A stretch of DNA of 64,000 nt. Source: a virus. Lineage: Duplodnaviria; Heunggongvirae; Uroviricota; Caudoviricetes. Positions 418 through 40,317 of this stretch are shown in pieces. The notes below the pieces were generated by a model that worked only from the letters and a program-made list of their open reading frames with translations, ran no database searches and was not told where the DNA came from. The stretch spans positions 93,307 to 157,306 of IMG/VR virus record IMGVR_UViG_3300025723_001543; one strand, 5' to 3'. How positions within the stretch are numbered: position 1 is the stretch's first letter; the number at the start of each line of letters is the position of its first letter. Position numbers and translations under genes: made by a program.

Positions 418-3345
418 CTATTCTGCTTCTTTAAATGTTAATGAAGGATAAGGAGGTACAAAAATTTCAGCAACAGACATTCCTGCTTTATTTATTGAAG
501 GCAATTTTGGTTTTAATGCTGGTGTGCCCAATTTGGCAACTAAATCACCATTTTTTGTTATTAAAAGAACATCAATTCTTGGTAAATAAAATTCTACATC
601 ATAAACAAAATTTTGATTAGGCATAGGAACAACATTGCTATCACCTTTTAAGAAAATTCCATCATTATTTGCAGGATTTACTGTTGCAGATGAAATTGTA
701 GTAGCAATAACTGCAGTGTTTGCCATCACTGATCTAAAGTCAATAAAATTTCTCAAATCATGTGCAATCAAAGATGTGTCAATATAAAGAGGTACTTCTA
801 ATGTTCTTATTGTTGTGTTTGCATCCGCAGTATTTGAATCATCAATAGGATATGAATCGACACTAAAGAATCCAGATTGTGTTGCTGTAATATTTGCAGT
901 AAAATGATTTAACTTAACAAGAAGTTTTGATGAACTATCCAACGATCCAGCATATGCTGGGTCTAAAACAAGTTCAGAAATTCCATAATAAGCGTCTCTT
1001 TCACCATTATCAAGAGTAAACCATTGTTTTTTATCTGGGTTTGCTTCATCATAAGATGCACCAAAATGAACATTTGCAATTTTATATGCATCAGGAAGTC
1101 CAAGTGGCCATGGACCAATTGTACCAGCAGGATGAGTAGAACAATCAATTTTTATATAAGTATTTTTATGTACAACTTTTTGTATTGCAGTTGCAGCTGG
1201 TCTTCCTACTGGTATTAATCCAATGATATTATATGAAGGAGAATCTGGATCAACTTCAAGTTGTGCATGAGAAAGTGTAGATGAATCAATTACAAATGTG
1301 TTTCCACTACCAAACAAGTCAACAGGTGTGCCTTGTTTAAAGAATTTTTGAACTGTAATAGTTCCAGTTCCAGAAAGAGTTGTATTTGGAACTAATGAAA
1401 CTTTGTTTGATGTATATATCGTATTAACTGTGTGATACGTTTTTGTTGCGCCAGAAGAAAGGACAATTCCATCACCAACATTAAATGCACTTGTAAAATC
1501 ATCAGTGGATGATACATTAGAAGCAGTTGTGTTTGATGCTTCAATATTGCCGGTGGTGATGAGTGCATTAGTTGTAGTATCTTGTGCGAAAAGAAGATCA
1601 ATACCTTCTTGTTGAATATCAGAAATAGTTCCTATACCATAATCGAATATGTCTGTTCCTGTTGTACTAAAAGAAACAGAACTTCTACCAGAAGATGGAA
1701 CCAATGTTCCTGACAACATAGCTTTATAAACAAACAGTGAATTATTTTCACCAGCTCCATTCGTTAATCTTTTAACGCTGGCAAGACCTGTGTCAAATAA
1801 TGAAGCAGTAAGATTACTATCTAATACATTTGCCTTTCCAGCACCATCTAATAGAATATCAGCATATGCTTTTCCATAAGTATTATTTACATAAAAACTC
1901 TTCGCATCATTTGTAAAACTTTTGCCGGGATTCATTTTTACATTAAAAATATAAAAATTATATACTGCGAATGCTGTACCTTTACGACCATTCTCATAGC
2001 TCAAAGCTTTAATACATGCAGTACCAATCTTATTTCCAATTGGAGATGTTCTCGATTGATCTAATGTCAAAACTCCTTGAGGTGTATCATAGATATCCAT
2101 CTGATCTAAATTATTAAAATCAAAAATACCAGCATAATTATATACTTGAACATAATTGCCATAACTAGATGTTACAATTTGATTTACAAGAGTATTAGTT
2201 GTCAAAGCTCTTGGAGCAAAAATTTTCTTTGGTGAAAGAAATTCTACACGATAACCATCGACATATCCAATTCCTGCAGATACGTTATAAAAGAAAACAT
2301 TGGCATTATATGAAGTGACATCTACCTGAAATGCATTGACAACAAAATCTCCAGCTTCTTCAGAAGTTCTCTTTGCCATTGTATCCATTATAGTACTATA
2401 TTGTGGATTAGTATTATTGATGACAAGTCTGCCATCTCCACCATCATATGAAAGAACATTTAAGAAATTTGCTGGTATAGTTACTTGAGTATTTGATGCA
2501 TCATAGTATACAGGTTCTGGAACAAGTTTAAGTCTATATGCACCGGGAGCATTATAGTTAGGACTACCAATAGAATTGTCATATAATGAATCATCTTCTA
2601 CAGAAGAAACAATATATTCTTTTGTATCAAACCCAACAACCATCCCTGCAACATTTACAGTATTTTCTTTTATAATAATATTTGTCGGTAAAGTTTTTAA
2701 GAAAAACCCTTTTTGATAAATTACGCCTTCTGAAAGACGAAGCCCATATCCTTGACCAAGAGCATTTACTGTGCTATTTGATGAAAGAGTATACAAAACT
2801 CCTAATTTATTTGCATTATTTAAAATACCAGTTTTGTCTTGATAAGAATTATAAACATCAATTTGCTCTGATGTTTGATTGAATTGGTTTACTTCTATAC
2901 CAGCATTGTTTCCAGATGTTACATATCGTATATAAGCTCTGTTTGTATCTAATGAACCAAAATTAACTGCAGATTCTGTTCCACTATATGCTCTAAATAC
3001 GGCTGCTCTAAGACCTGATGTATTAGATACAAGTAAATAGCTATTAGCAACATCAGGTAAATCACCAACAATAGTATTAAAATCTAAACTATTTGTAGAA
3101 TTATCTTTAAATCTTATGCAATAAAAATCAGATTGCTTGAATCCACAACCTTCTATAATTGAACCATCTTTGTAAATACTATTGCCAAATTTAGAAATTT
3201 GCCATTGAAGAATTGTCTGAAGCTGAGTTAATTCTCTTGCCTGAACAGCTGTGGCTGGACGAAACAATATTCTATAATATTGTTTGTTCTCATCAAAATC
3301 GTCAAAAAATGGAGCTATATTAAAATTCGTCTGTAACTCAGCCAT
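418..3345 (-). CDS. large structural protein (975 aa), baseplate-distal / short-fibre-like; not confidently mapped to T4 gp9-gp12
   Basis: Long ORF in the six-frame track, co-oriented and tightly packed with gp6/gp7/gp8 homologs. No catalytic motifs seen. Confidence 0.4.
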   Translation of the reverse strand: MAELQTNFNIAPFFDDFDENKQYYRILFRPATAVQARELTQLQTILQWQISKFGNSIYKDGSIIEGCGFKQSDFYCIRFKDNSTNSLDFNTIVGDLPDVANSYLLVSNTSGLRAAVFRAYSGTESAVNFGSLDTNRAYIRYVTSGNNAGIEVNQFNQTSEQIDVYNSYQDKTGILNNANKLGVLYTLSSNSTVNALGQGYGLRLSEGVIYQKGFFLKTLPTNIIIKENTVNVAGMVVGFDTKEYIVSSVEDDSLYDNSIGSPNYNAPGAYRLKLVPEPVYYDASNTQVTIPANFLNVLSYDGGDGRLVINNTNPQYSTIMDTMAKRTSEEAGDFVVNAFQVDVTSYNANVFFYNVSAGIGYVDGYRVEFLSPKKIFAPRALTTNTLVNQIVTSSYGNYVQVYNYAGIFDFNNLDQMDIYDTPQGVLTLDQSRTSPIGNKIGTACIKALSYENGRKGTAFAVYNFYIFNVKMNPGKSFTNDAKSFYVNNTYGKAYADILLDGAGKANVLDSNLTASLFDTGLASVKRLTNGAGENNSLFVYKAMLSGTLVPSSGRSSVSFSTTGTDIFDYGIGTISDIQQEGIDLLFAQDTTTNALITTGNIEASNTTASNVSSTDDFTSAFNVGDGIVLSSGATKTYHTVNTIYTSNKVSLVPNTTLSGTGTITVQKFFKQGTPVDLFGSGNTFVIDSSTLSHAQLEVDPDSPSYNIIGLIPVGRPAATAIQKVVHKNTYIKIDCSTHPAGTIGPWPLGLPDAYKIANVHFGASYDEANPDKKQWFTLDNGERDAYYGISELVLDPAYAGSLDSSSKLLVKLNHFTANITATQSGFFSVDSYPIDDSNTADANTTIRTLEVPLYIDTSLIAHDLRNFIDFRSVMANTAVIATTISSATVNPANNDGIFLKGDSNVVPMPNQNFVYDVEFYLPRIDVLLITKNGDLVAKLGTPALKPKLPSINKAGMSVAEIFVPPYPSLTFKEAE

Positions 3346-3354
3346 TGGTAGTCC

Positions 3355-4842
3355 TTAAATTGAAAAATACAATTTTAATTGTTCTGTTGTTATGCCTTGT
3401 CTACTAATAGGTTCTATATTTTTATAATAAAATATATTGGCGCTATATGGTACAATATCAGAAGTATTTATAGCTGCAGGAATAGCTGTTTCACCAGTAT
3501 AAAAACCAGTAACAGTTTCATATGGAGTAAATACTCCTTGTACATTCTTCAAATATAATTTTTCTGCATTCATATAAACAACAATTCCTGTTGCCCCACT
3601 TAAGTAACCAGTTACAATTTCCCCTTCTCCCATAAGACCACTAAAAGTATCTAATGCAAGAACATGTAATTGTAAAAATGTATTATCAATATACCTAAAT
3701 CCATCTAAAGTTGATATTGGATTATACATCAAAGATGCTTGTCTATATGTAATCCAATTTGGAAAATTATCACCTATATCTGTAGAAACAGAAACACCTA
3801 ATGTTGAACAATCTAATTCATATATTGTATTTGCACCATGACCATATTTTGGTGATATTATTGGATAAGTTGTTGCATCCATTCCAAAATAAGAATTTGC
3901 AACAATCTGAGTTGTGCAATAATTATATCCCATACCTCTTGCAATAACACGTATATTTTTTATTTCACCATGAAGCGGATCAACATCACATATAGCAAAA
4001 GCACCAATTCCATCTCCTTGAAACTGAACCTGTGGCGAAATAACAAAACTATTATTTACAATTTCAGTTATAGGCGATAGAGTAGAGATATATCTTCCAG
4101 CTGTATTTACTGTGTAATCACTAATTATAGATACAGAACGTGATGTAGGTCCACCAGCATAAAATGTAGATAAATTATATGATCCTGCAATAGATGATGT
4201 ATTCGTATTAGTAATTTTAAATGTGTTATTGTCTATGATCATGTCAATTTGACCATTAGCAGACATATAACCAGTTCCAGTATTACTTACCATACAAACA
4301 TGAATAGCGCCATCTTCAGCATTGCTAATAACTTCCGCATCACTTAATACAGGAATATAAGAATTGGTTGTAAATTTTTTTGTTAGAATACTAGAAATTG
4401 TGTAAAGATATTTCCATTTATATCCATCACTAGTGTTGAAATCGCCAACAGCTATGTCACCTTCAGGCATAACAATAGAAGGTGACATATAATTATTAAA
4501 TAAACATTTGTAAACTCTGTTTGAAGAATTTAATACATAATACATTTTAGAAGAAATATTTGGATCAGTATTATCATATTGATCATAAACAGTATTTGCT
4601 GTCCAATTTATTCTTGGAATAACAAATCCTACATCTTCTGGAACAACTCTTTTACCAAAAAGTAAATCTTTTTGTACATCATAATAATATGACTGTATAC
4701 TTTCATTTGTAGAAGGAGGATTCTGATCATCATCCCACATATCATTTTTACCAAACCCAACATAGTAACTGAAAGATGTATTAGAGATATTAGTTACTAT
4801 ATCTTCTATAATTTTTGTTTTGAAAGTTTGGTTAAAGGTCAT
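3355..4842 (-). CDS. 8: baseplate wedge protein, gp8-like
   Basis: Segments YYVGFGKNDMWDDD and RINWTANTVYDQYDNTDPNISSKMYYVLNSSNRVYKCLFN resemble remembered T4 gp8 (FITFGRSEPWSSNENE; RRDWGDTRYPDPYTFRINDIVVCNSAPYNATE...YRCLD). The ORF sits after gp7-like in wedge-operon order. Confidence 0.5.
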   Translation of the reverse strand: MTFNQTFKTKIIEDIVTNISNTSFSYYVGFGKNDMWDDDQNPPSTNESIQSYYYDVQKDLLFGKRVVPEDVGFVIPRINWTANTVYDQYDNTDPNISSKMYYVLNSSNRVYKCLFNNYMSPSIVMPEGDIAVGDFNTSDGYKWKYLYTISSILTKKFTTNSYIPVLSDAEVISNAEDGAIHVCMVSNTGTGYMSANGQIDMIIDNNTFKITNTNTSSIAGSYNLSTFYAGGPTSRSVSIISDYTVNTAGRYISTLSPITEIVNNSFVISPQVQFQGDGIGAFAICDVDPLHGEIKNIRVIARGMGYNYCTTQIVANSYFGMDATTYPIISPKYGHGANTIYELDCSTLGVSVSTDIGDNFPNWITYRQASLMYNPISTLDGFRYIDNTFLQLHVLALDTFSGLMGEGEIVTGYLSGATGIVVYMNAEKLYLKNVQGVFTPYETVTGFYTGETAIPAAINTSDIVPYSANIFYYKNIEPISRQGITTEQLKLYFSI

Positions 4843-16947: not shown

Positions 16948-17552
16948 TGGGAATGTTCTCAGATAAATTAGACCCTAATAGACCAGTTAATAAAAGATCA
17001 GCTGATCAGGTCAGAAAATGGATGACCGGAAAACTTGGCGATTTTAGAAACGCCAATGCAAAAGTTCGTAATATTATGATGGATAATAGAGAATATCTTA
17101 GAACTTCTATGCGCCCCGGTTACATGTATCTATACATGTATAATCCTAAACATAAGGATACATTACCATTTTATGATAGGTATCCTCTTGTATTTCCGTT
17201 TAAAGCAGTTGAAAATGGATTTTTAGGGTTGAACCTCCACTATCTTCCTCCTATCATGAGAGCAAAACTTATGGATGCTCTTTATGATAAAGTTAATAAT
17301 AACAAATATGACGAGACAACTCGTCTTAAAATTAGTTATGATATTTTAAATGGAGCATCAAGATATAAGTATTTTAGACCTTGTGTAAAGAGATACTTGT
17401 ATTCACATCTTCAGACAAAGTTTCTTTTGATTCCAGCTAATGAATGGGATTATGCTTTGTTTATTCCGTTCGAACAGTTTGAAAAGCAGGGCAGCAGAAT
17501 AAATAAAGAGATCGTATATAGAGATTCAAGGAACAAAATTAATGGCGTTTAG
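16947..17552 (+). CDS. possible DNA end protector gp2-like (by position only)
   Basis: 201-aa ORF translationally coupled to the gp4-like gene. Confidence 0.25.
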   Translation: MGMFSDKLDPNRPVNKRSADQVRKWMTGKLGDFRNANAKVRNIMMDNREYLRTSMRPGYMYLYMYNPKHKDTLPFYDRYPLVFPFKAVENGFLGLNLHYLPPIMRAKLMDALYDKVNNNKYDETTRLKISYDILNGASRYKYFRPCVKRYLYSHLQTKFLLIPANEWDYALFIPFEQFEKQGSRINKEIVYRDSRNKINGV

Positions 17553-18258
17553 CGTAAATGAAATGTTATCCACCATTAATTCAAATGGTGGAATATCAAA
17601 AGCATCAAGATTTATGGCATATTTTAGAAAATACCCATCTGGTATTACAACAGATGGGAATGCTAGTGATTTATCTTTCTTTTGCGAATCTACTTCTATT
17701 CCCGGTATTGCGTATCAAACAGATGATATCAGGGCATCTGGTTATGGAAATATAGAAAAACGTCCTTATGCAACAGTATATCAAGATGTTACATTAAATT
17801 TCTTCTGTGATAATGATGGAAGAGTAATAAATTTTATGCATAAATGGTTGCAATCTATATTTAATTTTAATAATAAAAGTGCTCCAGATGCTACAACAAA
17901 TGCTGGTTTACCTCTTCATACTTTTGGGTATCCAAAAGATTATTTTGGAACAATAGAAATAATACATTATTATGATCAAAATTATGGGCAAGAGCAAATC
18001 GTATCTGTTTCTCTTCAGGAAGCATATCCAATTAATATTGGAGAAATAACAGTTGATTGGAATAGTACAGATACTCTTACTAAGATTCCTGTGACGTTTG
18101 CTTATACTTATTGGTCATCAGAAACACTTGATCAAGGAACTATTGATACTAATTCTTCTACCAGAGCATCTACATTGATGAATACACAAACAAGAATTGA
18201 TTCTTCGCTTTCTTCAGTTCAAGAAGCAATTGGAATAACAACTCCTTTAAATCGTTAA
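17542..18258 (+). CDS. tail tube-family paralog (gp48/gp54/gp3-like tube cap/initiator)
   Basis: Pattern SRFMAYF...FFCESTSIPG...PYATVYQDVTLNFFCDNDGRV..FMHKWLQ...IPVTFAY resembles tube-family proteins (compare gp19 in this window). Confidence 0.45.
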   Translation: MAFSVNEMLSTINSNGGISKASRFMAYFRKYPSGITTDGNASDLSFFCESTSIPGIAYQTDDIRASGYGNIEKRPYATVYQDVTLNFFCDNDGRVINFMHKWLQSIFNFNNKSAPDATTNAGLPLHTFGYPKDYFGTIEIIHYYDQNYGQEQIVSVSLQEAYPINIGEITVDWNSTDTLTKIPVTFAYTYWSSETLDQGTIDTNSSTRASTLMNTQTRIDSSLSSVQEAIGITTPLNR

Positions 18259-18285
18259 TATATTAAAAAAATAAGGTGAAATGAA

Positions 18286-18978
18286 ATGGCATTACCGAAA
18301 ATTAAACATCCTACTTATAAAATTACTATACCATCAAACAAAAAAGAAGTAAATTTTCGTCCTTTTACAGTACAAGAAGAAAAGCTTCTTCTTATGGCTA
18401 AGAATTCAGAAATTACTGAAGATATCATTAACACTGTAAGACAAGTTATTCAGAATTGTATTATTGAACCTATTGATGTTGAAAAACTTGCCATTTTTGA
18501 TATTGAATATATTTTTATTAAACTTAGGTCAAAATCAGTTGGAGAAATTGTTGAACTAGAATACATTGATCCTGAAACAAATGAAAATGTAAAGTTTAAG
18601 GTAAATTTAGAAGATATTGAAGTAAAGAGAGACGAAAAACATACTAATAAGTTTCCTCTTTTTGAGAATATTGGTGTCGTTATGCGGTATCCAACTCTTG
18701 ATGAAATCAAGGCAGTTGAAGATGCTGGTAAAGATGAAGCAGTATTTACTATGTTATTGAAATGTATCGACACAATTTATGACGATGAAACAGTATATTC
18801 TGATTATTCTGAGAAGGAATTGAAAGATTTTATTGATTCTCTTCCTATGGAAAGTATGGGAGCAATTCAAACTTTCTTTGAAACAATGCCTTCTGTTGAA
18901 CATACAGTAACACTAAAGAATAAACAAGGTGAGACTAAGGAAGTTGTATTAAAAGGAATTAATAGTTTTTTTACATAA
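18286..18978 (+). CDS. tail assembly chaperone (G-like), immediately upstream of tape measure
   Basis: 230-aa acidic protein ending at a T7 run (18966-18972). A -1 ORF continues to 19163 and overlaps the TMP start: classic G/GT arrangement. Confidence 0.5.
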   Translation: MALPKIKHPTYKITIPSNKKEVNFRPFTVQEEKLLLMAKNSEITEDIINTVRQVIQNCIIEPIDVEKLAIFDIEYIFIKLRSKSVGEIVELEYIDPETNENVKFKVNLEDIEVKRDEKHTNKFPLFENIGVVMRYPTLDEIKAVEDAGKDEAVFTMLLKCIDTIYDDETVYSDYSEKELKDFIDSLPMESMGAIQTFFETMPSVEHTVTLKNKQGETKEVVLKGINSFFT

Positions 18979-19163
18979 TGGTGGGATATAATAATATTGC
19001 CACCTATTATAATACTCTGTTTTCTTTGATACAACATCATAAATACTCATTGACAGAAGTATATGAAATGTACCCATATGAGCGTGATCTATTCGTTGAA
19101 TTATTAATACAGCATCTAAGAGAACAAGAAGAAGAAAACAACAGAAGAAACACACATGGCTGA
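18966..19163 (+). CDS. -1 frameshift extension of chaperone (GT-like product), slippery site T TTT TTT at 18966-18972
   Basis: Frame -1 ORF YIMVGYNNIATYYN...NTHG* begins at the heptanucleotide and ends by overlapping ATG 19156 of the tape measure gene. Confidence 0.45.
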   Translation, partial: FFYIMVGYNNIATYYNTLFSLIQHHKYSLTEVYEMYPYERDLFVELLIQHLREQEEENNRRNTHG

Positions 19164-21402
19164 TTTAGGTAATTTAACGAAAAAAGTTGCAGGAAAAGTT
19201 GGTTCTGCAGCTATGACTGTAGGAAAAACAGCCGGGGGCGCAGTTGCTTCCGCTGGTAAAGCAGTTGGTGGCGTTGTTAGTTCTCTTGCTCAAGGTACGT
19301 TCAATACTATAAAAAGTGGTATTGTTCAATCTACAGGCATAAATGCATTACGCCCATCTAATGTTATTGGTGGTGTATTAGATTCTGTTGGTCTTGGAGC
19401 AATGAGACCAGCATTTGGTGGAGACCCAACACAAAAAGCGGCTGCACAAGCAGCAAATCGTGTTGTAGCACAAAACAATGCTAATACTTCTTTAAAACCA
19501 TTAGAAGAACTTCTTCAAAAACTTTTAACAATCAATGAAAAAATTCTTGAAAATACTAACTCTATGTTAAGTTATGCAAAGAAACAAAGTGGACTATTAG
19601 ATACTGCTAATGATCTTGTTAAAAAACAGATGCTACAAGATATTGAAAATGCAAGAGTAGCAGCTGGAAAAGGAAAAGTTGGCGTAGGCACACCAGCAAA
19701 CGATAATACTCCCGGCAAAAAGCCAGCTGAAGGTGGTTTTCTCAGTGGAATTTTAGGGAGTATTATGGGTGGTGCTGGAAGTCTTTTAAAAATGCTTGGT
19801 CCAATCGGAGAATTTTTAGGTTCAATTGGAAGAATATTTTTAAAACTTGGCAGATTTACTATGTTATTAAATCCATATGTTCTTGCAGCTGAAGTAATAT
19901 TATTGTCTCTTAAAGCAGAAGATTGGGCATCTTTTTTTGACAATATTGGTAAAATATTTGGTGCTCTTGCTGAAGGAAAATTTCTTGAAGCTTTTACAAG
20001 ATCAATGCTTTTACTTCCTGAATTAATACTTAGAGGACTGATGAGAATTGCAGAATATATACTTGAATTTTTTGGATTTGAAGACTTAGCAAAAAAATTA
20101 AGTAAATTTATTGATTCATTTGACTTATATGATATATTGGTAAATTCTTTTAAAGAAATTGTTGATGTTATAATGAATATTGGATCAATGCTTGTAGATG
20201 GTGCAAAATTTATAGGCAAAAAAATTGGCGGTGTAATATCTGGTGTATGGGATACTATATCAAATGCATTTGGCACATTATTTAAAGATATAACGGATGC
20301 ATTTGATGCTTTTTCTTCTGGTGATATAATCAAAGGAATAGTAAAGTTAGTTTATGCAATACCAGATGCTCTTATTCAATGGGTCGGAAGAGCATTAGCC
20401 ACTGTAGTAGATTTTTTTGGTGGTGCAGAAATGGCTAAAACCATTCGTAATTTCTTAGATAATTTTAATCTAACAGATACTATTCTTAAATTTTTTACAT
20501 CTGTAAAAGAATATGTAACTGATACTTTTGCTAGTGCTACCAAAGCATTTTCTGATTGGTGGAAAGATTTTCATCCAATTGATGACATGATTGGAACATT
20601 TAGTTCAATAAAAGATTGGATAACATCTAAATTTACTGACACTACCAAAGCATTTTCTGATTGGTGGAAAGATTTTCATCCAATTGATGACATGATTGGA
20701 ACATTTAGTTCAATAAAAGATTGGATAACATCTAAATTTACTGACACTACCAAAGCATTTTCACAATGGTGGGATAGTTTTTCAATAATTGATATTGTAC
20801 TTACGCCATTCAATTATTTAAAAGATACTGCAACAGCATTATTTGATAATCTTCAAAAATCAGTTGCAGATGTTCTTTCGTTTGATCTTGTCAAAAAAGT
20901 AAGTGATTCTATAAGTTCAGTAGTAAGCGGCGTTTGGGATTTCTTTAAAGCTTTGCCAAGCAAAGCTGTTGATTTAATTTCTGATTTGATTCCTGATAGT
21001 CTTAAAGGTTTTTTCAAATCTATGTTTGGTAGTTCAACCACACCAACAGCAACACCAACTACACCGCCAGTAACACAACCAAGAACAGCTCTTACTCCAC
21101 AATCGACGAGTAGAGTAATTCAAGAACGTGAAGACGCTTTTAATGCTACACCAACTGCAGCTAATGTTTCACCAGTTCCAACTGGAAGAGAGCAAGTATT
21201 CAATCAACAATCTGCACGTATGTCAGTTGATCAAGCAGCACCAACAGCTGTAATTATAAACAACAATAATAATAGCCCAAATATTGGAAGTTCTGGGCAA
21301 AATTCACTGCCCAGAACTTCGGGTGCAGTACAAACAGCTCCACAATCATCTCATATAGACAGAGCATTATATGGAGATACTTATGGAGCTGGTGTTCCTT
21401 AG
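19156..21402 (+). CDS. tail tape measure protein (gp29-like)
   Basis: 748 aa. Gly/Ala-rich N-terminal hydrophobic segment, long helical body, 35-aa tandem repeats, and a position after the chaperone with frameshift. Confidence 0.6.
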   Translation: MADLGNLTKKVAGKVGSAAMTVGKTAGGAVASAGKAVGGVVSSLAQGTFNTIKSGIVQSTGINALRPSNVIGGVLDSVGLGAMRPAFGGDPTQKAAAQAANRVVAQNNANTSLKPLEELLQKLLTINEKILENTNSMLSYAKKQSGLLDTANDLVKKQMLQDIENARVAAGKGKVGVGTPANDNTPGKKPAEGGFLSGILGSIMGGAGSLLKMLGPIGEFLGSIGRIFLKLGRFTMLLNPYVLAAEVILLSLKAEDWASFFDNIGKIFGALAEGKFLEAFTRSMLLLPELILRGLMRIAEYILEFFGFEDLAKKLSKFIDSFDLYDILVNSFKEIVDVIMNIGSMLVDGAKFIGKKIGGVISGVWDTISNAFGTLFKDITDAFDAFSSGDIIKGIVKLVYAIPDALIQWVGRALATVVDFFGGAEMAKTIRNFLDNFNLTDTILKFFTSVKEYVTDTFASATKAFSDWWKDFHPIDDMIGTFSSIKDWITSKFTDTTKAFSDWWKDFHPIDDMIGTFSSIKDWITSKFTDTTKAFSQWWDSFSIIDIVLTPFNYLKDTATALFDNLQKSVADVLSFDLVKKVSDSISSVVSGVWDFFKALPSKAVDLISDLIPDSLKGFFKSMFGSSTTPTATPTTPPVTQPRTALTPQSTSRVIQEREDAFNATPTAANVSPVPTGREQVFNQQSARMSVDQAAPTAVIINNNNNSPNIGSSGQNSLPRTSGAVQTAPQSSHIDRALYGDTYGAGVP
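20539..20772 (+). repeat. in-frame 105-bp tandem direct repeat (2 identical copies + partial third) inside the tape measure gene
   Basis: ACCAAAGCATTTTCTGATTGGTGGAAAGATTTTCATCC... recurs at 20539, 20644 and 20749, encoding TKAFSDWWKDFHPIDDMIGTFSSIKDWITSKFTDT x2.3. Confidence 0.85.
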
Positions 21403-22349
21403 TCCTTAGCAAGCTTCTTAAAGAAACTCAAGTCTTCGTCGTCTTCCTCTGCGGAATCCCAAGGATTAGAAGCTTTTGGTGCTTCCTTCATTGCAGCCAT
21501 CTTTGGCGATGGAGCAAAGTCTGTAGAATCGGATACCATAGTCTTCTTGTTATCAACAGCAAGACCAAGAGCCTTTTCAAGACGCTTCTTCAACTCATCA
21601 TAAGTCTTGAAGTTCTTTGGATCAAGAAGTTCAGTGAGTGAATACTCAGACTTCCAAATCTTCTCAAGCTCATCATCATCTCTGACAAGAGGACCAGTAC
21701 GATCAAACTCTGACTTATCATAGTTTGGATATCCATCAACCTTACGAATCTTTAGCTTCAAGTTTGCACCTTCCCAAAGATCAAAAGGATTAAATGCATT
21801 TGAAGGATCATATTGCGGATGATCTGGACTACGACCCTGATCATCAAAAGCAGGATGCATAGCTTCATTGAGCTTCTCAAAAATCTTCTTACCATACTTG
21901 TAAAGGAAGACCTTGCCTTCATTCTGAGGGCGATTAGGATCAGAAACTACATAAATGTTTGAATAATAACTCAAACGACGCTTCTGCTTACGAACGACTT
22001 CCTTGTTAGACTCAATACCAGAATTCCACAACTGAGAATTATACTCAGTGCAAGGATCAGCAGTACCGGGACCAAAAGTAGTCAATGACTTCTCAATGTA
22101 CCATCCGCCCGGTCCCTGAAATCCATGATCCCAAATACGAGTAAAAGGAACATCCTCACCAGAAGGTGCTGGCAAGAAACGAATGATAGCATAACCATTT
22201 CCAGCCTTATCAATGTCAGGCTTCCAAAAACGATTATCTTCATTGTTACTTGTGGGAGAATTAATCTTGGCAATCTCGCTGTTGAGCTTATCAAACTGAG
22301 ACTTGCGGTTGCTCTTAAGTGCTTCAAAGTTAGTCATAGTTATCTCCAT
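21399..22349 (-). CDS. 32: single-stranded DNA-binding protein gp32 (probable true start at second ATG, 22337)
   Basis: KPDIDKAGNGYAIIRFLP, NEGKVFLYKYGKKIFEKL and WEGANLKLKIRK match T4 gp32 (KLDNAGNGQAVIRFLP, NEGKVFKYRFGKKIWDKI, WEGANFVLKVK). GGAG Shine-Dalgarno lies 7 nt before the second ATG. Confidence 0.9.
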   Translation of the reverse strand: MEITMTNFEALKSNRKSQFDKLNSEIAKINSPTSNNEDNRFWKPDIDKAGNGYAIIRFLPAPSGEDVPFTRIWDHGFQGPGGWYIEKSLTTFGPGTADPCTEYNSQLWNSGIESNKEVVRKQKRRLSYYSNIYVVSDPNRPQNEGKVFLYKYGKKIFEKLNEAMHPAFDDQGRSPDHPQYDPSNAFNPFDLWEGANLKLKIRKVDGYPNYDKSEFDRTGPLVRDDDELEKIWKSEYSLTELLDPKNFKTYDELKKRLEKALGLAVDNKKTMVSDSTDFAPSPKMAAMKEAPKASNPWDSAEEDDEDLSFFKKLAKD

Positions 22350-37349: not shown

Positions 37350-37731
37350 TAAAGATGTAATTTCAAATTCATTAGGAATACCACCCATTCCTTCTCCACC
37401 AAATCCTGTATTCTTGCCGTCAAAAGAAAAGAATGACTATGAATATGCTCGTCAGAACATGTATGATATCATAGAAAAAGGTCAATCTGCATTAGAAGAT
37501 ATTGTAGATATTGCTAGACAATCAGAATCTCCTAGAGCATATGAAGTAGTCACCAATTTAATTAAAACTTTGGCTGAAACAAATAAAGACCTTATGGAAT
37601 TAGCAAAAAAGAACAAAGAAATTAATAAAGCTGATAGTAGCAATGAAGGTAATAAAACAGTCAACAACAATTTATTTGTTGGTTCTTCTTCTGAGTTATT
37701 GAAGATGATTAGGTCTGATTATAATGAATAG
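37333..37731 (+). CDS. 16: terminase small subunit gp16
   Basis: DYEYARQNMYDIIEKGQSALEDIVDIARQSESPRAYEVVTNLIKTLAETNKDLMEL aligns with T4 gp16 ([56 protein letters not shown]). Confidence 0.8.
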   Translation: MKHMVNKDVISNSLGIPPIPSPPNPVFLPSKEKNDYEYARQNMYDIIEKGQSALEDIVDIARQSESPRAYEVVTNLIKTLAETNKDLMELAKKNKEINKADSSNEGNKTVNNNLFVGSSSELLKMIRSDYNE

Positions 37732-38608
37732 TACAAATGAAGTATATCTTGGTAATATAAACTTAAAGCGTAAAGGTGTCCAACTAGAATTTTCAAAAGA
37801 ACAAATTTTAGAATATATAAAGTGCGCCAATGATGTAAATTATTTTTGTGAGAATTATGTTAAGATCGTGAGTATTGATAAAGGACTCGTTTCTTTTAGT
37901 CCTTATCAATATCAAAAAAGAATGTTTAAAGTATTTGATGACAACCGTTTTACAATATGTAAAATGCCTCGTCAGGTGGGGAAAACAACAGGTGTTGTTG
38001 GGTATATGCTTCATAAAATTCTTTTCAATGAAAATTATAATATTGCAGTTTTGGCTAATAAACAAATTCAATCAAAAGAAATTCTTTCTCGAATTCAACT
38101 TGCATATGAATGGTTGCCCAAATGGATGCAGCAAGGCATTATTCAATGGAATAGAGGAAATATCGAATTGGAAAATGGTTCTAAAATACTTGCAGCTGCC
38201 ACTTCATCATCTGCTATTCGTGGTCAATCTTATAATCTAATTTATCTTGATGAGTTTGCATTCGTTCCCAGAAATATTCAAGACACATTTTTTGCTTCAG
38301 TATTCCCAACAATTTCTTCTGGTAACACTTCTAAATTATTAATAACTTCCACACCAAATGGTATGAATTTATTTTATAAAATTTGGATGGACTCTGTTAA
38401 TAGTGAAAATTCTTATGCCCGTGTTGATGTTCATTGGTCAGATGTTCCCGGCAGAGACGAAGCATGGAAAGTAGAAACTATTCGAAATACTTCTGTTGAT
38501 CAATTTCGTCAAGAGTTTGAATGTTTAGACGGTGATACAGAAATTAATATTTTAATAGATAACATTTCCAAAAAAGTTGCAATCAAAGAAATTATAAATA
38601 TAATATGA
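37724..38608 (+). CDS. 17: terminase large subunit gp17, N-terminal (ATPase) fragment fused to a 28-aa N-intein
   Basis: Walker A RQVGKTT (T4 SRQLGKTT). Extein ends ...SVDQFRQEFE (T4 ...LAQFRQEHTAAFE), then CLDGDTEINILIDNISKKVAIKEIINII-stop, i.e. intein block A (C-L-x-x-D-T-x-I). Confidence 0.85.
   Translation: MNSTNEVYLGNINLKRKGVQLEFSKEQILEYIKCANDVNYFCENYVKIVSIDKGLVSFSPYQYQKRMFKVFDDNRFTICKMPRQVGKTTGVVGYMLHKILFNENYNIAVLANKQIQSKEILSRIQLAYEWLPKWMQQGIIQWNRGNIELENGSKILAAATSSSAIRGQSYNLIYLDEFAFVPRNIQDTFFASVFPTISSGNTSKLLITSTPNGMNLFYKIWMDSVNSENSYARVDVHWSDVPGRDEAWKVETIRNTSVDQFRQEFECLDGDTEINILIDNISKKVAIKEIINII
38522..38605 (+). other. N-terminal half of atypically split intein (Int-N, 28 codons starting with Cys)
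   Basis: TGT at 38522 lies in frame with the terminase ATPase fragment. CLDGDTEI motif; stop codon 38606-38608. Confidence 0.75.
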
Positions 38609-38624
38609 ATGCAATTTTATAGGA

Positions 38625-39194
38625 TTGAATTATATGCATTATAGAAAAATTTGGGAAAATACACACGGAAAAATACCAACTGATGAAAATGGGTTTTCTT
38701 ATGAAATACATCATATAGATGGTAATCATAAAAATAATAACATAGAAAATTTACAATTAGTTACAATAAGAGAACATTTCGATATTCATTTACAGCAAGA
38801 AGATTGGTTTGCAGCTGCATTAATTGCTAAAAGAATTGGATTTGGTCCAGATTATTCTTCAAATTTACAAAAAGGAAAGAAAAGACCAAATATTGGTGGA
38901 GTTTCAAAAGGAACAGTTCCGTGGAATAAAGGGAAAAAATATTCTTTTTCTGAAGAAGTTAGAAACAACAGAAAAGGTAAAAGATTTGGAAAAGTTAAAA
39001 TTACTGATCATGAATGTTGTTTAATTTTGAAAAAATATAATAATAAAATTCCTTTAAATGGTGTAGGTGATATATCAAAAAATGGAAGAAAAATTACTTA
39101 TGAAAGAGTTTTTTCTAAAGAATTTCATAAAGAATATAACGTAACTGAATCACAATTATATAATATAATTACAGGAAAACGAAATGTTCTTTAA
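38625..39194 (+). CDS. free-standing HNH homing endonuclease between the terminase halves (likely ATG start at 38634; track start 38625 is TTG)
   Basis: EIHHIDGNHKNNNIENLQLVTIREHFDIH is an HNH motif. Its frame differs from both terminase fragments, and its 3' end overlaps the C-intein ORF start by 11 nt. Confidence 0.8.
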   Translation: MNYMHYRKIWENTHGKIPTDENGFSYEIHHIDGNHKNNNIENLQLVTIREHFDIHLQQEDWFAAALIAKRIGFGPDYSSNLQKGKKRPNIGGVSKGTVPWNKGKKYSFSEEVRNNRKGKRFGKVKITDHECCLILKKYNNKIPLNGVGDISKNGRKITYERVFSKEFHKEYNVTESQLYNIITGKRNVL

Positions 39195-39507
39195 AAATAA
39201 TAATACATTAATAGAAACATCTGAAGGGTATTTACCTTTTAAAGGTGTACAAAAAATTAAAAAAAATGGTCAAATTGAAATTCATTTAGAAAACGGCAGT
39301 CAATTAAAATGTTCGCTTACCCACCGAATCATGACTGTAGATGGTTGGAAGAAATCTATTGATCTTAAGAACGACGATATTATCATATGTAAAAACGAAA
39401 AATCTAAGATATTTTTTCTAGATTACAAAGAGGGAGAATTTGAATATTTTGATATTGTTGGAGTAGAAAATGAACAGTTTTATGCAAATGATATTTTATC
39501 ACATAAT
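39184..39507 (+). other. C-terminal half of atypically split intein (Int-C, 108 codons; ends ...ILSHN, +1 Cys at 39508)
   Basis: Own ATG with AGGA Shine-Dalgarno 7 nt upstream. Terminal HN | C splice junction. Confidence 0.75.
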
Positions 39508-40317
39508 TGCGAATTCTTAGGTTCTACTAACACTCTTATCCATCCTTCAGTTCTTTCTAGATTAGCATACATGAGACCAATAGACAATCCTCATGAAGTA
39601 AAAATATATAAACATCCAATCAAAGATCATATTTATTCCATAACAGTAGATGTTAGCGAAGGTTTAGGGATGGATTCATCTGCACTCGTAGTAATCGATT
39701 GTTCTACTGTTCCATATGAAGTCGTTGCTACATTTAAAGATTCAAATATATCACAATTAATGTTACCAACATTACTTTCTAATATAGGAAAATATTATAA
39801 CGAAGCAGCTATATTGGTTGAAATAAATATAGGATCACAAGTAGTAAATATTCTACATCAAGATTTAGAATATGAAAATATTGTTATGACAAAAATGAGT
39901 GGTAAAAAAGGCACAGCAATAGGTATATCAGGTAATCAAAATAGATTAGGTATAAAAACAACTCAAGTTACTAAAAGAATAGGATGCGCTAACTTAAAAA
40001 CTCTTATCGAATCTGATAAAATAATTTTAAATGATTATGATATTATAAATGAACTGTCCACATATGCTGTTGATAGAAATACTTACAATGCAGAAGAAGG
40101 ACATCATGACGATTTGGTAATGTGCATGGTTCTTTTTGCTTGGATGGCAAGTCAAAATTATTTTAAAGATGTTTCAAATACAGATATCCGTAGACGAATT
40201 GAAGAAGAAGTTGAAGAAGATTTCACACCTTTTGGTATTATACATGATGGCAGGGAAGAAGAATTTAACGATAAAGTAATGAGTGAAAACGAGTTTGAAA
40301 AATTTTTACTAAATTGA
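39184..40317 (+). CDS. 17: 108-aa C-intein fused to terminase large subunit C-terminal (nuclease) fragment
   Basis: ORF opens MFFKNNN...EYFDIVGVENEQFYANDILSHN followed by CEFLGSTNTLIHP. Intein blocks F/G end in HN with +1 Cys. The extein then continues in register with T4 gp17 (FEGTSGTLI...), with HDDLVMCMVLFAWM matching T4 HDDLVMSLVIFGWL. Confidence 0.85.
   Translation: MFFKNNNTLIETSEGYLPFKGVQKIKKNGQIEIHLENGSQLKCSLTHRIMTVDGWKKSIDLKNDDIIICKNEKSKIFFLDYKEGEFEYFDIVGVENEQFYANDILSHNCEFLGSTNTLIHPSVLSRLAYMRPIDNPHEVKIYKHPIKDHIYSITVDVSEGLGMDSSALVVIDCSTVPYEVVATFKDSNISQLMLPTLLSNIGKYYNEAAILVEINIGSQVVNILHQDLEYENIVMTKMSGKKGTAIGISGNQNRLGIKTTQVTKRIGCANLKTLIESDKIILNDYDIINELSTYAVDRNTYNAEEGHHDDLVMCMVLFAWMASQNYFKDVSNTDIRRRIEEEVEEDFTPFGIIHDGREEEFNDKVMSENEFEKFLLN

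What the first reader, a model, noticed from the sequence alone, without database searches (positions are those of the whole stretch)
18286..19163. Candidate -1 programmed frameshift (G/GT-type) in the tail assembly chaperone immediately upstream of the tape measure gene
The 230-aa chaperone ORF ends ...AAT AGT TTT TTT ACA TAA. It contains a run of seven T (18966-18972), a shifty X XXY YYZ heptamer (T TTT TTT). The -1 frame is open from exactly this point for 63 codons (YIMVGYNN...NTHG) and terminates by overlapping the tape measure ATG at 19156. That would yield a ~291-aa GT-like fusion at low frequency. This is the conserved long-tailed-phage arrangement, found here in a T4-like genome whose tube gene gp19 is located elsewhere. 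A tube-family paralog (17542-18258) precedes the chaperone, so the local order tube-like / chaperone / TMP mimics the non-T4 layout.
Basis: partly seen in the sequence, partly recalled or inferred. Interest (0 to 1): 0.6.

Follow-up and report, generated by a model that had tools for sequence, protein, structure and literature searches.

The report
T4-like phage tail-chaperone −1 frameshift
A T4-like phage gene just upstream of the tail-length ruler gene very probably makes a short and a long chaperone from one mRNA, by letting some ribosomes slip back one base on a run of T's; the case is convincing, but it is a new example of a mechanism already published for T4-like phages.

Summary
ORF 18286-18978 ends AAT AGT TTT TTT ACA TAA. 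The heptamer T TTT TTT (18966-18972) is in the right phase for a slip. The -1 frame opens exactly there, after TAA TAG, and runs 63 codons to a TGA that overlaps the tape-measure ATG at 19156.

The ORF is a homolog of T4 gp26 (PF12322). The -1 segment is the part found only in T4 gp51. Joined at the heptamer, the two frames align as one stretch with single-frame gp51-type proteins and profiles.

In 162 of 164 related loci (95 distinct junctions), an in-phase T TTT TTY/A heptamer lies 0-9 nt before the stop, and the extension is in the -1 frame. In 49 of 95 junctions the first ATG lies more than 12 codons inside the conserved extension, so independent initiation cannot be the general mechanism.

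T4 proper uses two separate genes (26 and 51) instead. According to citing papers, this was published by Vladimirov et al. 2022. The window holds a new, unannotated member of a known kind.

The parts
18272..18279 (+). Shine-Dalgarno site (TAAGGTGA) of the chaperone gene
   Evidence: Duplex with the 16S 3' end is -6.9 kcal/mol; sequence.
18286..18978 (+). TAC-N: 230-aa short tail assembly chaperone, homolog of T4 gp26 (0 frame, stop TAA 18976-18978)
18953..18957 (+). Internal SD-like motif (AAGGA), 8 nt upstream of the slippery heptamer; candidate 5' stimulator
   Evidence: Duplex with anti-SD is -5.6 kcal/mol. 81% of 95 related junctions reach -5 kcal/mol or lower, against 10% of background coding windows. 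At the Glu codon here GAG:GAA is 36:22 against a background of 482:1655, p=1e-10. Its function is inferred.
18966..18972 (+). Slippery heptamer T TTT TTT in X XXY YYZ phase; site of the -1 slip
   Evidence: An in-phase T TTT TTY/A heptamer is present in 162 of 164 related loci (95 distinct junctions). The preceding codon is always NNT, across 7 codons and 6 amino acids.
18972..19163 (+). -1 frame extension: 63 codons (YIMVGYNN...NTHG) plus TGA; the gp51-specific C-terminal segment of the long product TAC-NC (292 aa = residues 1-229 of the 0 frame + 63)
   Evidence: PHROG 634 4.8e-19. The fusion matches PHROG 634 as one stretch across the junction. Its PHROG 150 match extends from profile positions 5-233 to 5-279 of 282. 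BLASTP to a T4-type gp51 runs across the junction, E=1e-9.
18978..18980 (+). ATG overlapping the 0-frame stop (TAATG); possible reinitiation start for a free 61-aa peptide
   Evidence: There is no SD upstream (+0.8 kcal/mol). A start-capable codon (ATG or TTG) is kept in all 15 clade members. It is absent at this place in most other lineages.
18980..19004 (+). RNA hairpin (GGUGGGAUAU/AUAUUgCCACC), 7 nt 3' of the heptamer; candidate 3' stimulator. An AU-rich extension would span 18975-19010.
   Evidence: -8.3 kcal/mol for the core and -10.5 extended. In 15 distinct clade sequences, 100% of 150 pair cells are paired. Three pairs change on both sides, including a synonymous ACG/GCC to ACC/GCG swap. 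0 of 500 shuffles reach the covariation score.
19156..21402 (+). Tape measure protein gene (gp29 equivalent, 748 aa). Its ATG overlaps the stop of the -1 ORF (ATGGCTGA) and has no recognisable SD.
   Evidence: PHROG tape-measure families 1e-14 to 1e-12. SD duplex only -1.0 kcal/mol. In 71 of 78 related junctions the TMP start lies -5 to +8 nt from the first base of the -1 ORF stop.
17542..18258 (+). Tail-tube paralog directly upstream (context; probably the tube-initiator equivalent)
   Evidence: PHROG 45 2.7e-35. Pfam Phage_TTP_2. BLASTP against the window's gp19 E=5e-6. The initiator role is inferred.

Best explanation
The locus is the tail assembly chaperone (TAC) gene of an uncultured T4-like (Kyanoviridae-like) myovirus, and it is read in two ways.

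Most ribosomes translate 18286-18978 and terminate, giving the 230-aa short chaperone (TAC-N, the gp26 equivalent). A minority pause with tRNA-Phe in the P and A sites on T TTT TTT (18966-18972) and slip back one base. They then read 63 more codons in the -1 frame, giving a 292-aa long chaperone (TAC-NC, the equivalent of T4 gp51).

The pause is probably helped by two elements. One is an SD-like AAGGA 8 nt upstream that can pair with 16S rRNA. The other is a hairpin beginning 7 nt downstream.

By analogy with lambda G/GT, both products would coat the tape measure protein encoded by the next gene. The extension carried only by the long form would dock this complex onto the tube or hub during tail initiation. 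Neither product would stay in the virion.

What is shown: the sequence anatomy, its conservation, homology of the joined product to gp51, and a TAC-like fold. What is inferred: that the slip actually happens, its efficiency, the role of the two stimulators, and the binding partners.
For: 1. The anatomy is exact. The heptamer is in phase, the -1 frame opens at the heptamer, and it closes on the TMP start.

2. Of 164 related loci with a complete junction, 162 (95 distinct junction sequences, 35-86% aa identity) have an in-phase T TTT TTY/A heptamer 0-9 nt before the stop, followed by a -1 extension. The extension is 55-67 codons in the junctions where it is complete.

3. There is selection at the nucleotide level. 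The codon before Phe-Phe is always NNT (AGT, TCT, GAT, AAT, GCT, ACT, TTT), against a background third-base T of 57%. The first Phe codon is always TTT, against a background of 68%.

4. The extension is conserved from the first codon after the slip. Yet the first ATG is more than 12 codons downstream in 49 of 95 junctions, and no ATG, GTG or TTG occurs within 12 codons in 31 of 95.

5. The joined protein behaves as one protein. A T4-type gp51 aligns across the junction at E=1e-9. The PHROG 150 match grows from 236 to 263 bits and from profile 5-233 to 5-279. PHROG 634 matches as one stretch, residues 176-289.

6. gp26 and gp51 of a T4-type phage are paralogs, with gp51 carrying a C-terminal extension of about 50 aa. 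That is the short/long TAC pattern.

8. The downstream hairpin is fully paired in 15 clade sequences, with compensatory changes. The upstream SD-like motif is enriched, 81% against 10%.

9. No SD precedes ATG 18978.

10. Literature: T4 gp26 and gp51 are hub assembly chaperones, and gp51 is not found in the virion (PMC3004832). Poly-T slippery sites in the TAC-N genes of T4-like phages are attributed to Vladimirov et al. 2022 (PMC12846349; PMC10885494).
Against: There is no protein or ribosome-profiling evidence for this genome or for any relative examined here.

The window and all 15 members of its clade keep a start-capable codon (ATG or TTG) two codons after the slip point, overlapping the stop. 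So a free 61-aa peptide could be made as well as, or in this clade instead of, the fusion.

The hairpin is short and AU-rich (-8.3 kcal/mol), about the 10th percentile of local windows. A downstream structure is not general across the family (median percentile 0.34, KS p=0.06).

The SD-like motif overlaps conserved Glu/Lys-Gly codons, so part of its conservation is protein-level.

Slippery heptamers are common in this AT-rich genome.

The loci are phylogenetically related, so the counts are not independent events.
Confidence: 0.85

Rival explanations
1. There are two separate genes and no frameshift. Ribosomes terminating at TAA 18976-78 reinitiate at the overlapping ATG 18978 (TAATG) and make a free 61-aa gp51-like peptide, as most database annotations imply.
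For: An ATG is present in the window and an ATG or TTG in all 15 clade members. Gene callers and GenBank records annotate short 'gp51' ORFs. TAATG overlaps are a common form of translational coupling (general knowledge).
Against: In 49 of 95 distinct junctions the first ATG lies more than 12 codons inside the conserved extension, so this cannot be the ancestral or general mechanism. No SD lies upstream (+0.8 kcal/mol). It does not explain why the -1 frame is used in every case, the in-phase heptamer, or the NNT wobble conservation. The homologous T4-type gp51 has the segment covalently attached to a gp26-like domain. The two mechanisms may coexist in this clade; the confidence given here is for reinitiation as the sole mechanism.
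Confidence: 0.08
2. Transcriptional slippage. RNA polymerase stutters on the T run and makes a fraction of mRNAs with one base fewer (or two more), which encode the fusion in a single frame.
For: Homopolymer runs can cause RNA polymerase slippage (general knowledge). The preserved wobble T lengthens the run to at least 6-7.
Against: About half of the junctions have only six T's (TTTTTTC, 48 of 95), which is short for efficient polymerase slippage. The run is always in the exact X XXY YYZ phase and no longer than needed, except in 3 cases. That fits tandem tRNA slippage rather than selection for run length. The SD-like motif and the hairpin at 7 nt are ribosome-directed stimulators.
Confidence: 0.05
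3. It is an artefact or decay: a homopolymer sequencing error, or a recent frameshift mutation, in what is really one continuous 292-aa gene.
For: Homopolymer runs are prone to length errors, and the joined frames make a coherent protein.
Against: The same frame offset occurs in 162 independently assembled loci from many studies. The heptamers include TTTTTTC, and the stop lies at three main offsets (0, 3 or 6 nt; 9 nt once). The 120 best database homologs listed are 229-236 aa, so none is fused in frame.
Confidence: 0.01

Closest known systems
TAC genes of T4-like phages (Vladimirov, Gautam & Davidson 2022, Virology 566:9-15), including T4 gp26/gp51
   Same: Same protein family (PF12322). Same short/long pair. 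According to citing papers, the same poly-T -1 slippery signal at the 3' end of TAC-N in some T4-like phages.
   Different: In T4-type phages the long form (gp51) is a separate, divergently transcribed gene and the gp26 tail has no slippery heptamer (Serratia phage CBH8). The window uses the one-gene frameshift layout. I could not read the 2022 paper, so I cannot say whether this clade, the hairpin or the SD-like motif were described there.
Lambda G/GT tail assembly chaperones (Levin 1993; Xu, Hendrix & Duda 2004)
   Same: Gene directly upstream of the tape measure gene. -1 slip at a heptamer a few codons before the stop. Short abundant and long rare products share an N-terminus. The extension ends at the TMP start.
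   Different: Different slippery sequence (G GGA AAG in lambda, from my own knowledge). No detectable sequence similarity. TAC-N here is about 230 aa and appears to have two alpha/beta halves in the model, against about 140 aa for gpG. The extension is about 63 aa, against about 140 aa for T.
Phage P2 E/E' (Christie et al. 2002)
   Same: Myovirus TAC pair made by a -1 slip on a T-run heptamer (T TTT TTG, from my own knowledge), upstream of the tape measure gene.
   Different: Unrelated sequence family. P2 is not T4-like.
E. coli dnaX gamma/tau frameshift signal
   Same: Tripartite layout: an upstream SD-like element, a slippery heptamer and a downstream hairpin at 5-7 nt.
   Different: In dnaX the shift truncates the protein; here it extends it. 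The heptamer is A AAA AAG. SD spacing is 10 nt in dnaX and 8-9 nt here. The stimulators here are untested.
HK97 gp10 (PDB 2ob9) and YqbN (PDB 3klu) TAC structures
   Different: Only one domain-sized part aligns. Sequence identity is 6-10%. Foldseek finds nothing significant.

Membership tests
Phage tail assembly chaperone (G/GT-type TAC pair) | [quoted passage not shown] | tested here: met
   18286-19163 is followed by the TMP gene at 19156-21402 (PHROG tape-measure hits). The same order holds in relatives.
Phage tail assembly chaperone (G/GT-type TAC pair) | [quoted passage not shown] | tested here: met
   At the sequence level: an in-phase T TTT TTT one codon (3 nt) before the stop codon, with the -1 frame open from it for 63 codons. 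This is conserved in 162 of 164 loci.
Phage tail assembly chaperone (G/GT-type TAC pair) | The long frameshift product is actually made, at a low ratio to the short one. | not testable with these tools
   Needs proteomics, a reporter assay or ribosome profiling.
Phage tail assembly chaperone (G/GT-type TAC pair) | TAC fold. | tested here: met
Phage tail assembly chaperone (G/GT-type TAC pair) | Binds the tape measure protein, is required for tail assembly, and is absent from virions. | not testable with these tools
   Literature covers the T4 homologs only: gp26 and gp51 are listed as hub assembly chaperones, and gp51 is required but not present in the particle (PMC3004832).
T4 gp26/gp51 family (Pfam PF12322 T4_baseplate; PHROG 150/634) | Significant match of the 0-frame ORF to the family profile. 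| tested here: met
   PF12322 9.7e-65, 218.7 bits against a cutoff of 24.5. PHROG 150 9e-70.
T4 gp26/gp51 family (Pfam PF12322 T4_baseplate; PHROG 150/634) | The long member (gp51 type) is a gp26-like domain plus a C-terminal extension of about 50-60 aa, contiguous in one polypeptide. | tested here: met
   Met only if the -1 slip is assumed. The fusion aligns with CBH8 gp51 residues 16-250 across the junction. It matches PHROG 150 positions 5-279 of 282 and PHROG 634 positions 7-116 of 121, each as a single stretch.
T4 proper layout (separate genes 26 and 51) | gp51 is encoded by its own full-length gene, separate from gene 26. | tested here: not met
   The locus has no second PF12322 gene; only the 63-codon -1 segment follows gp26. 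In Serratia phage CBH8 the two genes are divergent. I did not scan the rest of the window with the profile.
Bacterial-type -1 PRF signal (dnaX-like) | X XXY YYZ heptamer in the 0-frame phase. | tested here: met
   T TTT TTT at 18966-18972. In-phase in 95 of 95 distinct junctions that have the one-gene layout.
Bacterial-type -1 PRF signal (dnaX-like) | Stimulatory RNA structure 5-9 nt downstream. | tested here: met
   Hairpin at 18980-19004, 7 nt downstream. It is 100% paired in 15 clade sequences, with 3 covarying pairs. It is clade-specific: there is no consensus structure across 55 diverse junctions. Its stimulatory function is not testable here.
Bacterial-type -1 PRF signal (dnaX-like) | Upstream SD-like element pairing with 16S rRNA. 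| tested here: inconclusive
   AAGGA lies 8 nt upstream, -5.6 kcal/mol. It is enriched across the family, and GAG is preferred over GAA. But it is confounded by conserved Glu/Lys-Gly codons, and the spacing is shorter than the 10 nt of dnaX.

The most novel reading that the evidence does not exclude
The frameshift may also set the dose of the tape measure protein. In the window's clade the TMP start codon has no Shine-Dalgarno site and overlaps the stop of the -1 ORF (ATGGCTGA). TMP may therefore be translated mainly by ribosomes that arrive in the -1 frame, that is, those that slipped at the heptamer or reinitiated at TAATG. That would tie TMP to TAC-NC at about 1:1 and fix both at a small fraction of TAC-N.

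In addition, lineages seem to swap the 3' stimulator. Where the 0-frame stop directly abuts the heptamer, there is no downstream structure (median MFE -3.4 against -8.2 kcal/mol, p=3.5e-5).
Probability: 0.25. Interest if true: 0.5.

Novelty: new member of a known kind. Interest (0 to 1): 0.3.

Why it matters
It places T4-like phages within the G/GT rule that holds for nearly all long-tailed phages. T4's two long-puzzling 'hub assembly' proteins, gp26 and gp51, are the short and long tail assembly chaperones. Most marine and freshwater T4-like phages make the gp51 equivalent by a -1 slip, where T4 proper uses a second gene.

The practical value is for annotation. GenBank and RefSeq cyanophage records either leave a gap of about 180 nt at this place or call a 45-47 aa 'gp51' from an internal ATG. 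At least 498 GenBank phage records carry the two parts adjacent to each other.

The family also offers a large natural series of T TTT TTY signals with different stimulators (hairpin, adjacent stop, SD-like motif). This series could be used to study bacterial -1 frameshifting.

Tried and rejected
- Chance: the heptamer by itself is not significant in this 33.5% GC genome (173 in-phase heptamers). The case rests on the open frame, the homology and the conservation.
- A universal downstream RNA structure: RNAalifold on 55 diverse junctions found none. Local MFE percentiles are only weakly skewed. An earlier mean z of -2.35, from mononucleotide shuffles, overstated the effect.
- Internal duplication of gp26 (two TAC-like halves): hhalign of the two halves gave probability 2.4%, so there is no sequence support.
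- Sequence search of the PDB with a gp26 profile found nothing. Foldseek against the PDB found nothing significant.
- AF2 on the 292-aa fusion without an alignment gave pLDDT 36, which is unusable.
- NCBIfam had no hits for any local protein.
- The other long -1 frame, after C CCA AAT at 21276 in the TMP gene, gives a non-protein-like translation that lies antisense to gp32. I rejected it as chance.
- I could not obtain Vladimirov et al. 2022. Its content is known here only through citing papers.
- Four closer relatives were listed without DNA.

Full report
**Observation**

ORF 18286-18978 (230 aa) ends AAT AGT TTT TTT ACA TAA. The seven T's occupy 18966-18972, so T TTT TTT sits in the X XXY YYZ phase of the 0 frame. 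In the -1 frame, TAA TAG occupy 18960-18965, which means that frame opens exactly at the T run. After a -1 slip the ribosome would read TAC ATA ATG GTG ... for 63 codons (YIMVGYNN...NTHG) to TGA 19161-19163. That stop overlaps the ATG of the next gene at 19156. The fusion would be 292 aa.

An ATG at 18978 overlaps the 0-frame stop (TAATG).

The window is 33.5% GC, so slippery heptamers are common: 173 in-phase XXXYYYZ heptamers in 65 genes, 12 of them T6N. The open -1 frames that follow them have a median of 4 codons and a 95th percentile of 24. This one has 63. The only longer case, at 21276, gives a W/C-rich translation that does not look like protein and lies antisense to gp32.

**What the genes are**

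The window is a T4-like myovirus. It carries:
- gp4 and gp2;
- a tube paralog (17542-18258);
- the ORF in question;
- a 748-aa tape measure protein gene (19156-21402);
- gp32 and gp59 on the other strand;
- sheath, gp19 tube and portal at 40-45 kb.

The tube paralog matches PHROG 45 and Pfam Phage_TTP_2, and aligns with the window's own gp19 at E=5e-6.

The ORF is a gp26 homolog: PF12322 at 9.7e-65 and PHROG 150 at 9e-70. The -1 segment matches PHROG 634, 'baseplate hub assembly catalyst' (the gp51 label), but only the C-terminal half of that profile.

No close relative exists among GenBank phages. The best are cyanophages and Methylophilales phage Melnitz, at 40-44% aa identity for this gene. 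Metagenomes hold relatives at up to 96%.

**The joined product is the gp51 equivalent**

In a T4-type phage (Serratia phage CBH8, Tevenvirinae), gene 26 (209 aa) and gene 51 (250 aa) are divergently transcribed. Residues 1-201 of gp51 match PF12322, and residues 9-203 align with gp26 (E=9e-10). So gp51 is a gp26-like domain plus a C-terminal extension of about 50 aa.

That gp51 aligns with the window's hypothetical fusion over residues 24-280, straight across the junction, at E=1e-9.

Against PHROG 150, gp26 alone matches profile positions 5-233 (236 bits), while the fusion matches 5-279 of 282 (263 bits) as one stretch. Against PHROG 634, the fusion matches positions 7-116 of 121 as one stretch (residues 176-289), as CBH8 gp51 does. 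Joining the two frames at the heptamer therefore rebuilds a protein that exists elsewhere in a single frame.

**Comparative test**

I collected 80 IMG/VR loci, 80 metagenome loci, 7 near relatives and GenBank examples. Of 164 loci with a complete junction, 162 have the arrangement, giving 95 distinct junction sequences. They share these features:
- An in-phase T TTT TTC (48), T TTT TTT (43) or T TTT TTA (4) heptamer.
- The 0-frame stop 0, 3, 6 or 9 nt after the heptamer.
- The homologous extension in the -1 frame, 55-67 codons where it is complete.

The two exceptions are CBH8, which has a separate gene 51, and Vibrio phage K446.

The codon before Phe-Phe is AGT, TCT, GAT, AAT, GCT, ACT or TTT. 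That is six different amino acids, and the codon always ends in T, against a background of 57% T. The first Phe codon is always TTT, against a background of 68%. These are nucleotide-level constraints of the kind a tandem-slippage site needs.

The extension is conserved from the first codon after the slip: [YRL][IVL]xLxHxxLxxYYxTNFxLMQHHKYSLxExExMxPWERxxY. Yet the first ATG lies more than 12 codons downstream in 49 of 95 junctions, and no ATG, GTG or TTG occurs within 12 codons in 31 of 95. Independent initiation therefore cannot be the general way this segment is expressed.

The 120 best database homologs listed are 229-236 aa, so none is fused in frame. In GenBank, 498 of 667 matching phage records carry both parts adjacent to each other. 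None of the records I inspected annotates the frameshift. S-CAM4 leaves a gap; S-8S29 and Melnitz-47 aa ORFs from internal ATGs.

**Stimulatory elements**

*Downstream.* In the window, a hairpin at 18980-19004 starts 7 nt after the heptamer (-8.3 kcal/mol, or -10.5 with an AU-rich extension).

In 15 distinct sequences of the window's clade, all 150 pair cells are paired. Three pairs change on both sides: GGUGG/CCACC in the window, GACGG/CCGUC and GACCG/CGGUC in relatives. One of these is a pair of synonymous third-position changes (ACG/GCC to ACC/GCG). None of 500 shuffles reaches the covariation score, and slid controls pair at only 32-62%.

The hairpin is not universal. There is no consensus structure across 55 diverse junctions, and local MFE percentiles are only weakly skewed. 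Loci in which the stop directly abuts the heptamer have less downstream structure (median -3.4 against -8.2 kcal/mol, p=3.5e-5). This could be a lineage effect.

*Upstream.* An SD-like motif (AAGGA in the window, -5.6 kcal/mol; GAGGG or GAAGG elsewhere) lies 8-9 nt before the heptamer. 81% of junctions reach -5 kcal/mol or lower, against 10% of background coding windows. GAG is preferred over GAA at that Glu codon, 36:22 against 482:1655. Conserved Glu/Lys-Gly residues confound this result.

**Fold**

**Mechanism**

The best-supported reading is a lambda G/GT-type -1 programmed ribosomal frameshift. It would give an abundant 230-aa TAC-N and a rare 292-aa TAC-NC, both serving the tape measure protein encoded next.

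T4 gp26 and gp51 are listed as hub assembly chaperones, and gp51 is required but absent from particles (PMC3004832).

Rivals:
- Reinitiation at TAATG as the sole mechanism. This is possible only in clades that have a start codon there. It may coexist with the frameshift in this clade, since ATG or TTG is kept in 15 of 15 members.
- Transcriptional slippage. This is disfavoured by the six-T heptamers and the strict phase.
- Sequencing error. This is excluded by 162 independent assemblies.

One further inference: the TMP ATG has no SD (-1.0 kcal/mol, against -6.9 for gp26) and overlaps the -1 stop. In 71 of 78 relatives, the TMP start lies within -5 to +8 nt of that stop. TMP translation may therefore be coupled to ribosomes in the -1 frame.

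**Novelty**

Papers citing Vladimirov, Gautam & Davidson 2022 state two things. Some T4-like phages carry a short TAC gene plus a long fused gene instead of frameshifting (PMC10885494). Poly-T sequences are -1 signals in the TAC-N genes of T4-like phages (PMC12846349). I could not read the paper itself.

The kind is therefore known. The window is a new, unannotated member from an uncultured lineage. The clade-specific hairpin, the SD-like motif and the possible TMP coupling may or may not have been described before.

Noticed in passing
window 37724-40317: The large terminase gene (gp17-like) is split in three. The N-terminal ATPase part is 37724-38608 (Terminase_6N, 2e-22). An HNH endonuclease ORF follows at 38625-39194 (HNH_3, 5.5e-13). 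Last is a 377-aa ORF at 39184-40317, with a sub-threshold Intein_splicing hit at residues 24-70 followed by the Terminase_6C nuclease domain. It looks like a homing endonuclease, intein or intron insertion in terL.
   Followed up: partly
window 19136-19163: The tape measure ATG (19156) has no recognisable Shine-Dalgarno site (-1.0 kcal/mol against -6.9 for the gp26 start). It overlaps the stop of the -1 ORF (ATGGCTGA). In 71 of 78 related junctions the TMP start lies within -5 to +8 nt of that stop. This suggests translational coupling of TMP to -1-frame ribosomes.
   Followed up: partly
related loci, e.g. L036:3672-3765, L049, L067, L078: In lineages where the 0-frame stop directly follows the heptamer (T TTT TTT TAA/TAG), the 50 nt downstream are unusually unstructured (median MFE -3.4 against -8.2 kcal/mol in the others, p=3.5e-5). 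This could mean an adjacent stop and a hairpin are alternative stimulators, or it could be a lineage effect.
   Followed up: partly
window 21276-21639: An in-phase C CCA AAT heptamer lies 39 codons before the TMP stop, followed by a 119-codon open -1 frame. The frame runs past the TMP stop, antisense to the gp32 gene. The translation is W/C-rich and not protein-like, so it is most likely chance.
   Followed up: yes
L082 (Vibrio phage K446, OZ196324.1) 2483-3223: This gp26-like 'baseplate hub' (246 aa) has no slippery heptamer and is not followed by a tape measure gene. tblastn with the fusion extends about 20 residues past the junction in a single frame. How this lineage makes a long form was not examined.
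   Followed up: no
L084 (S-CAM4 NC_031900) 3214-3393; L085 (S-8S29) 3262-3399; L083 (Melnitz) 3250-3393: Public cyanophage and Kyanoviridae records mis-annotate this spot. They show either an unannotated gap of about 180 nt, or a 45-47 aa 'baseplate hub assembly catalyst' called from an internal ATG. Neither represents the frameshift product.
   Followed up: yes
window 18286-18975 (AF2 model m1ec5e674dfa4): The gp26 model shows two successive alpha/beta units (about 10-115 and 120-229), each roughly the size of a classical TAC of about 100 aa. This hints at a tandem TAC-domain architecture, but hhalign of the halves gives no sequence support (probability 2.4%).
   Followed up: partly
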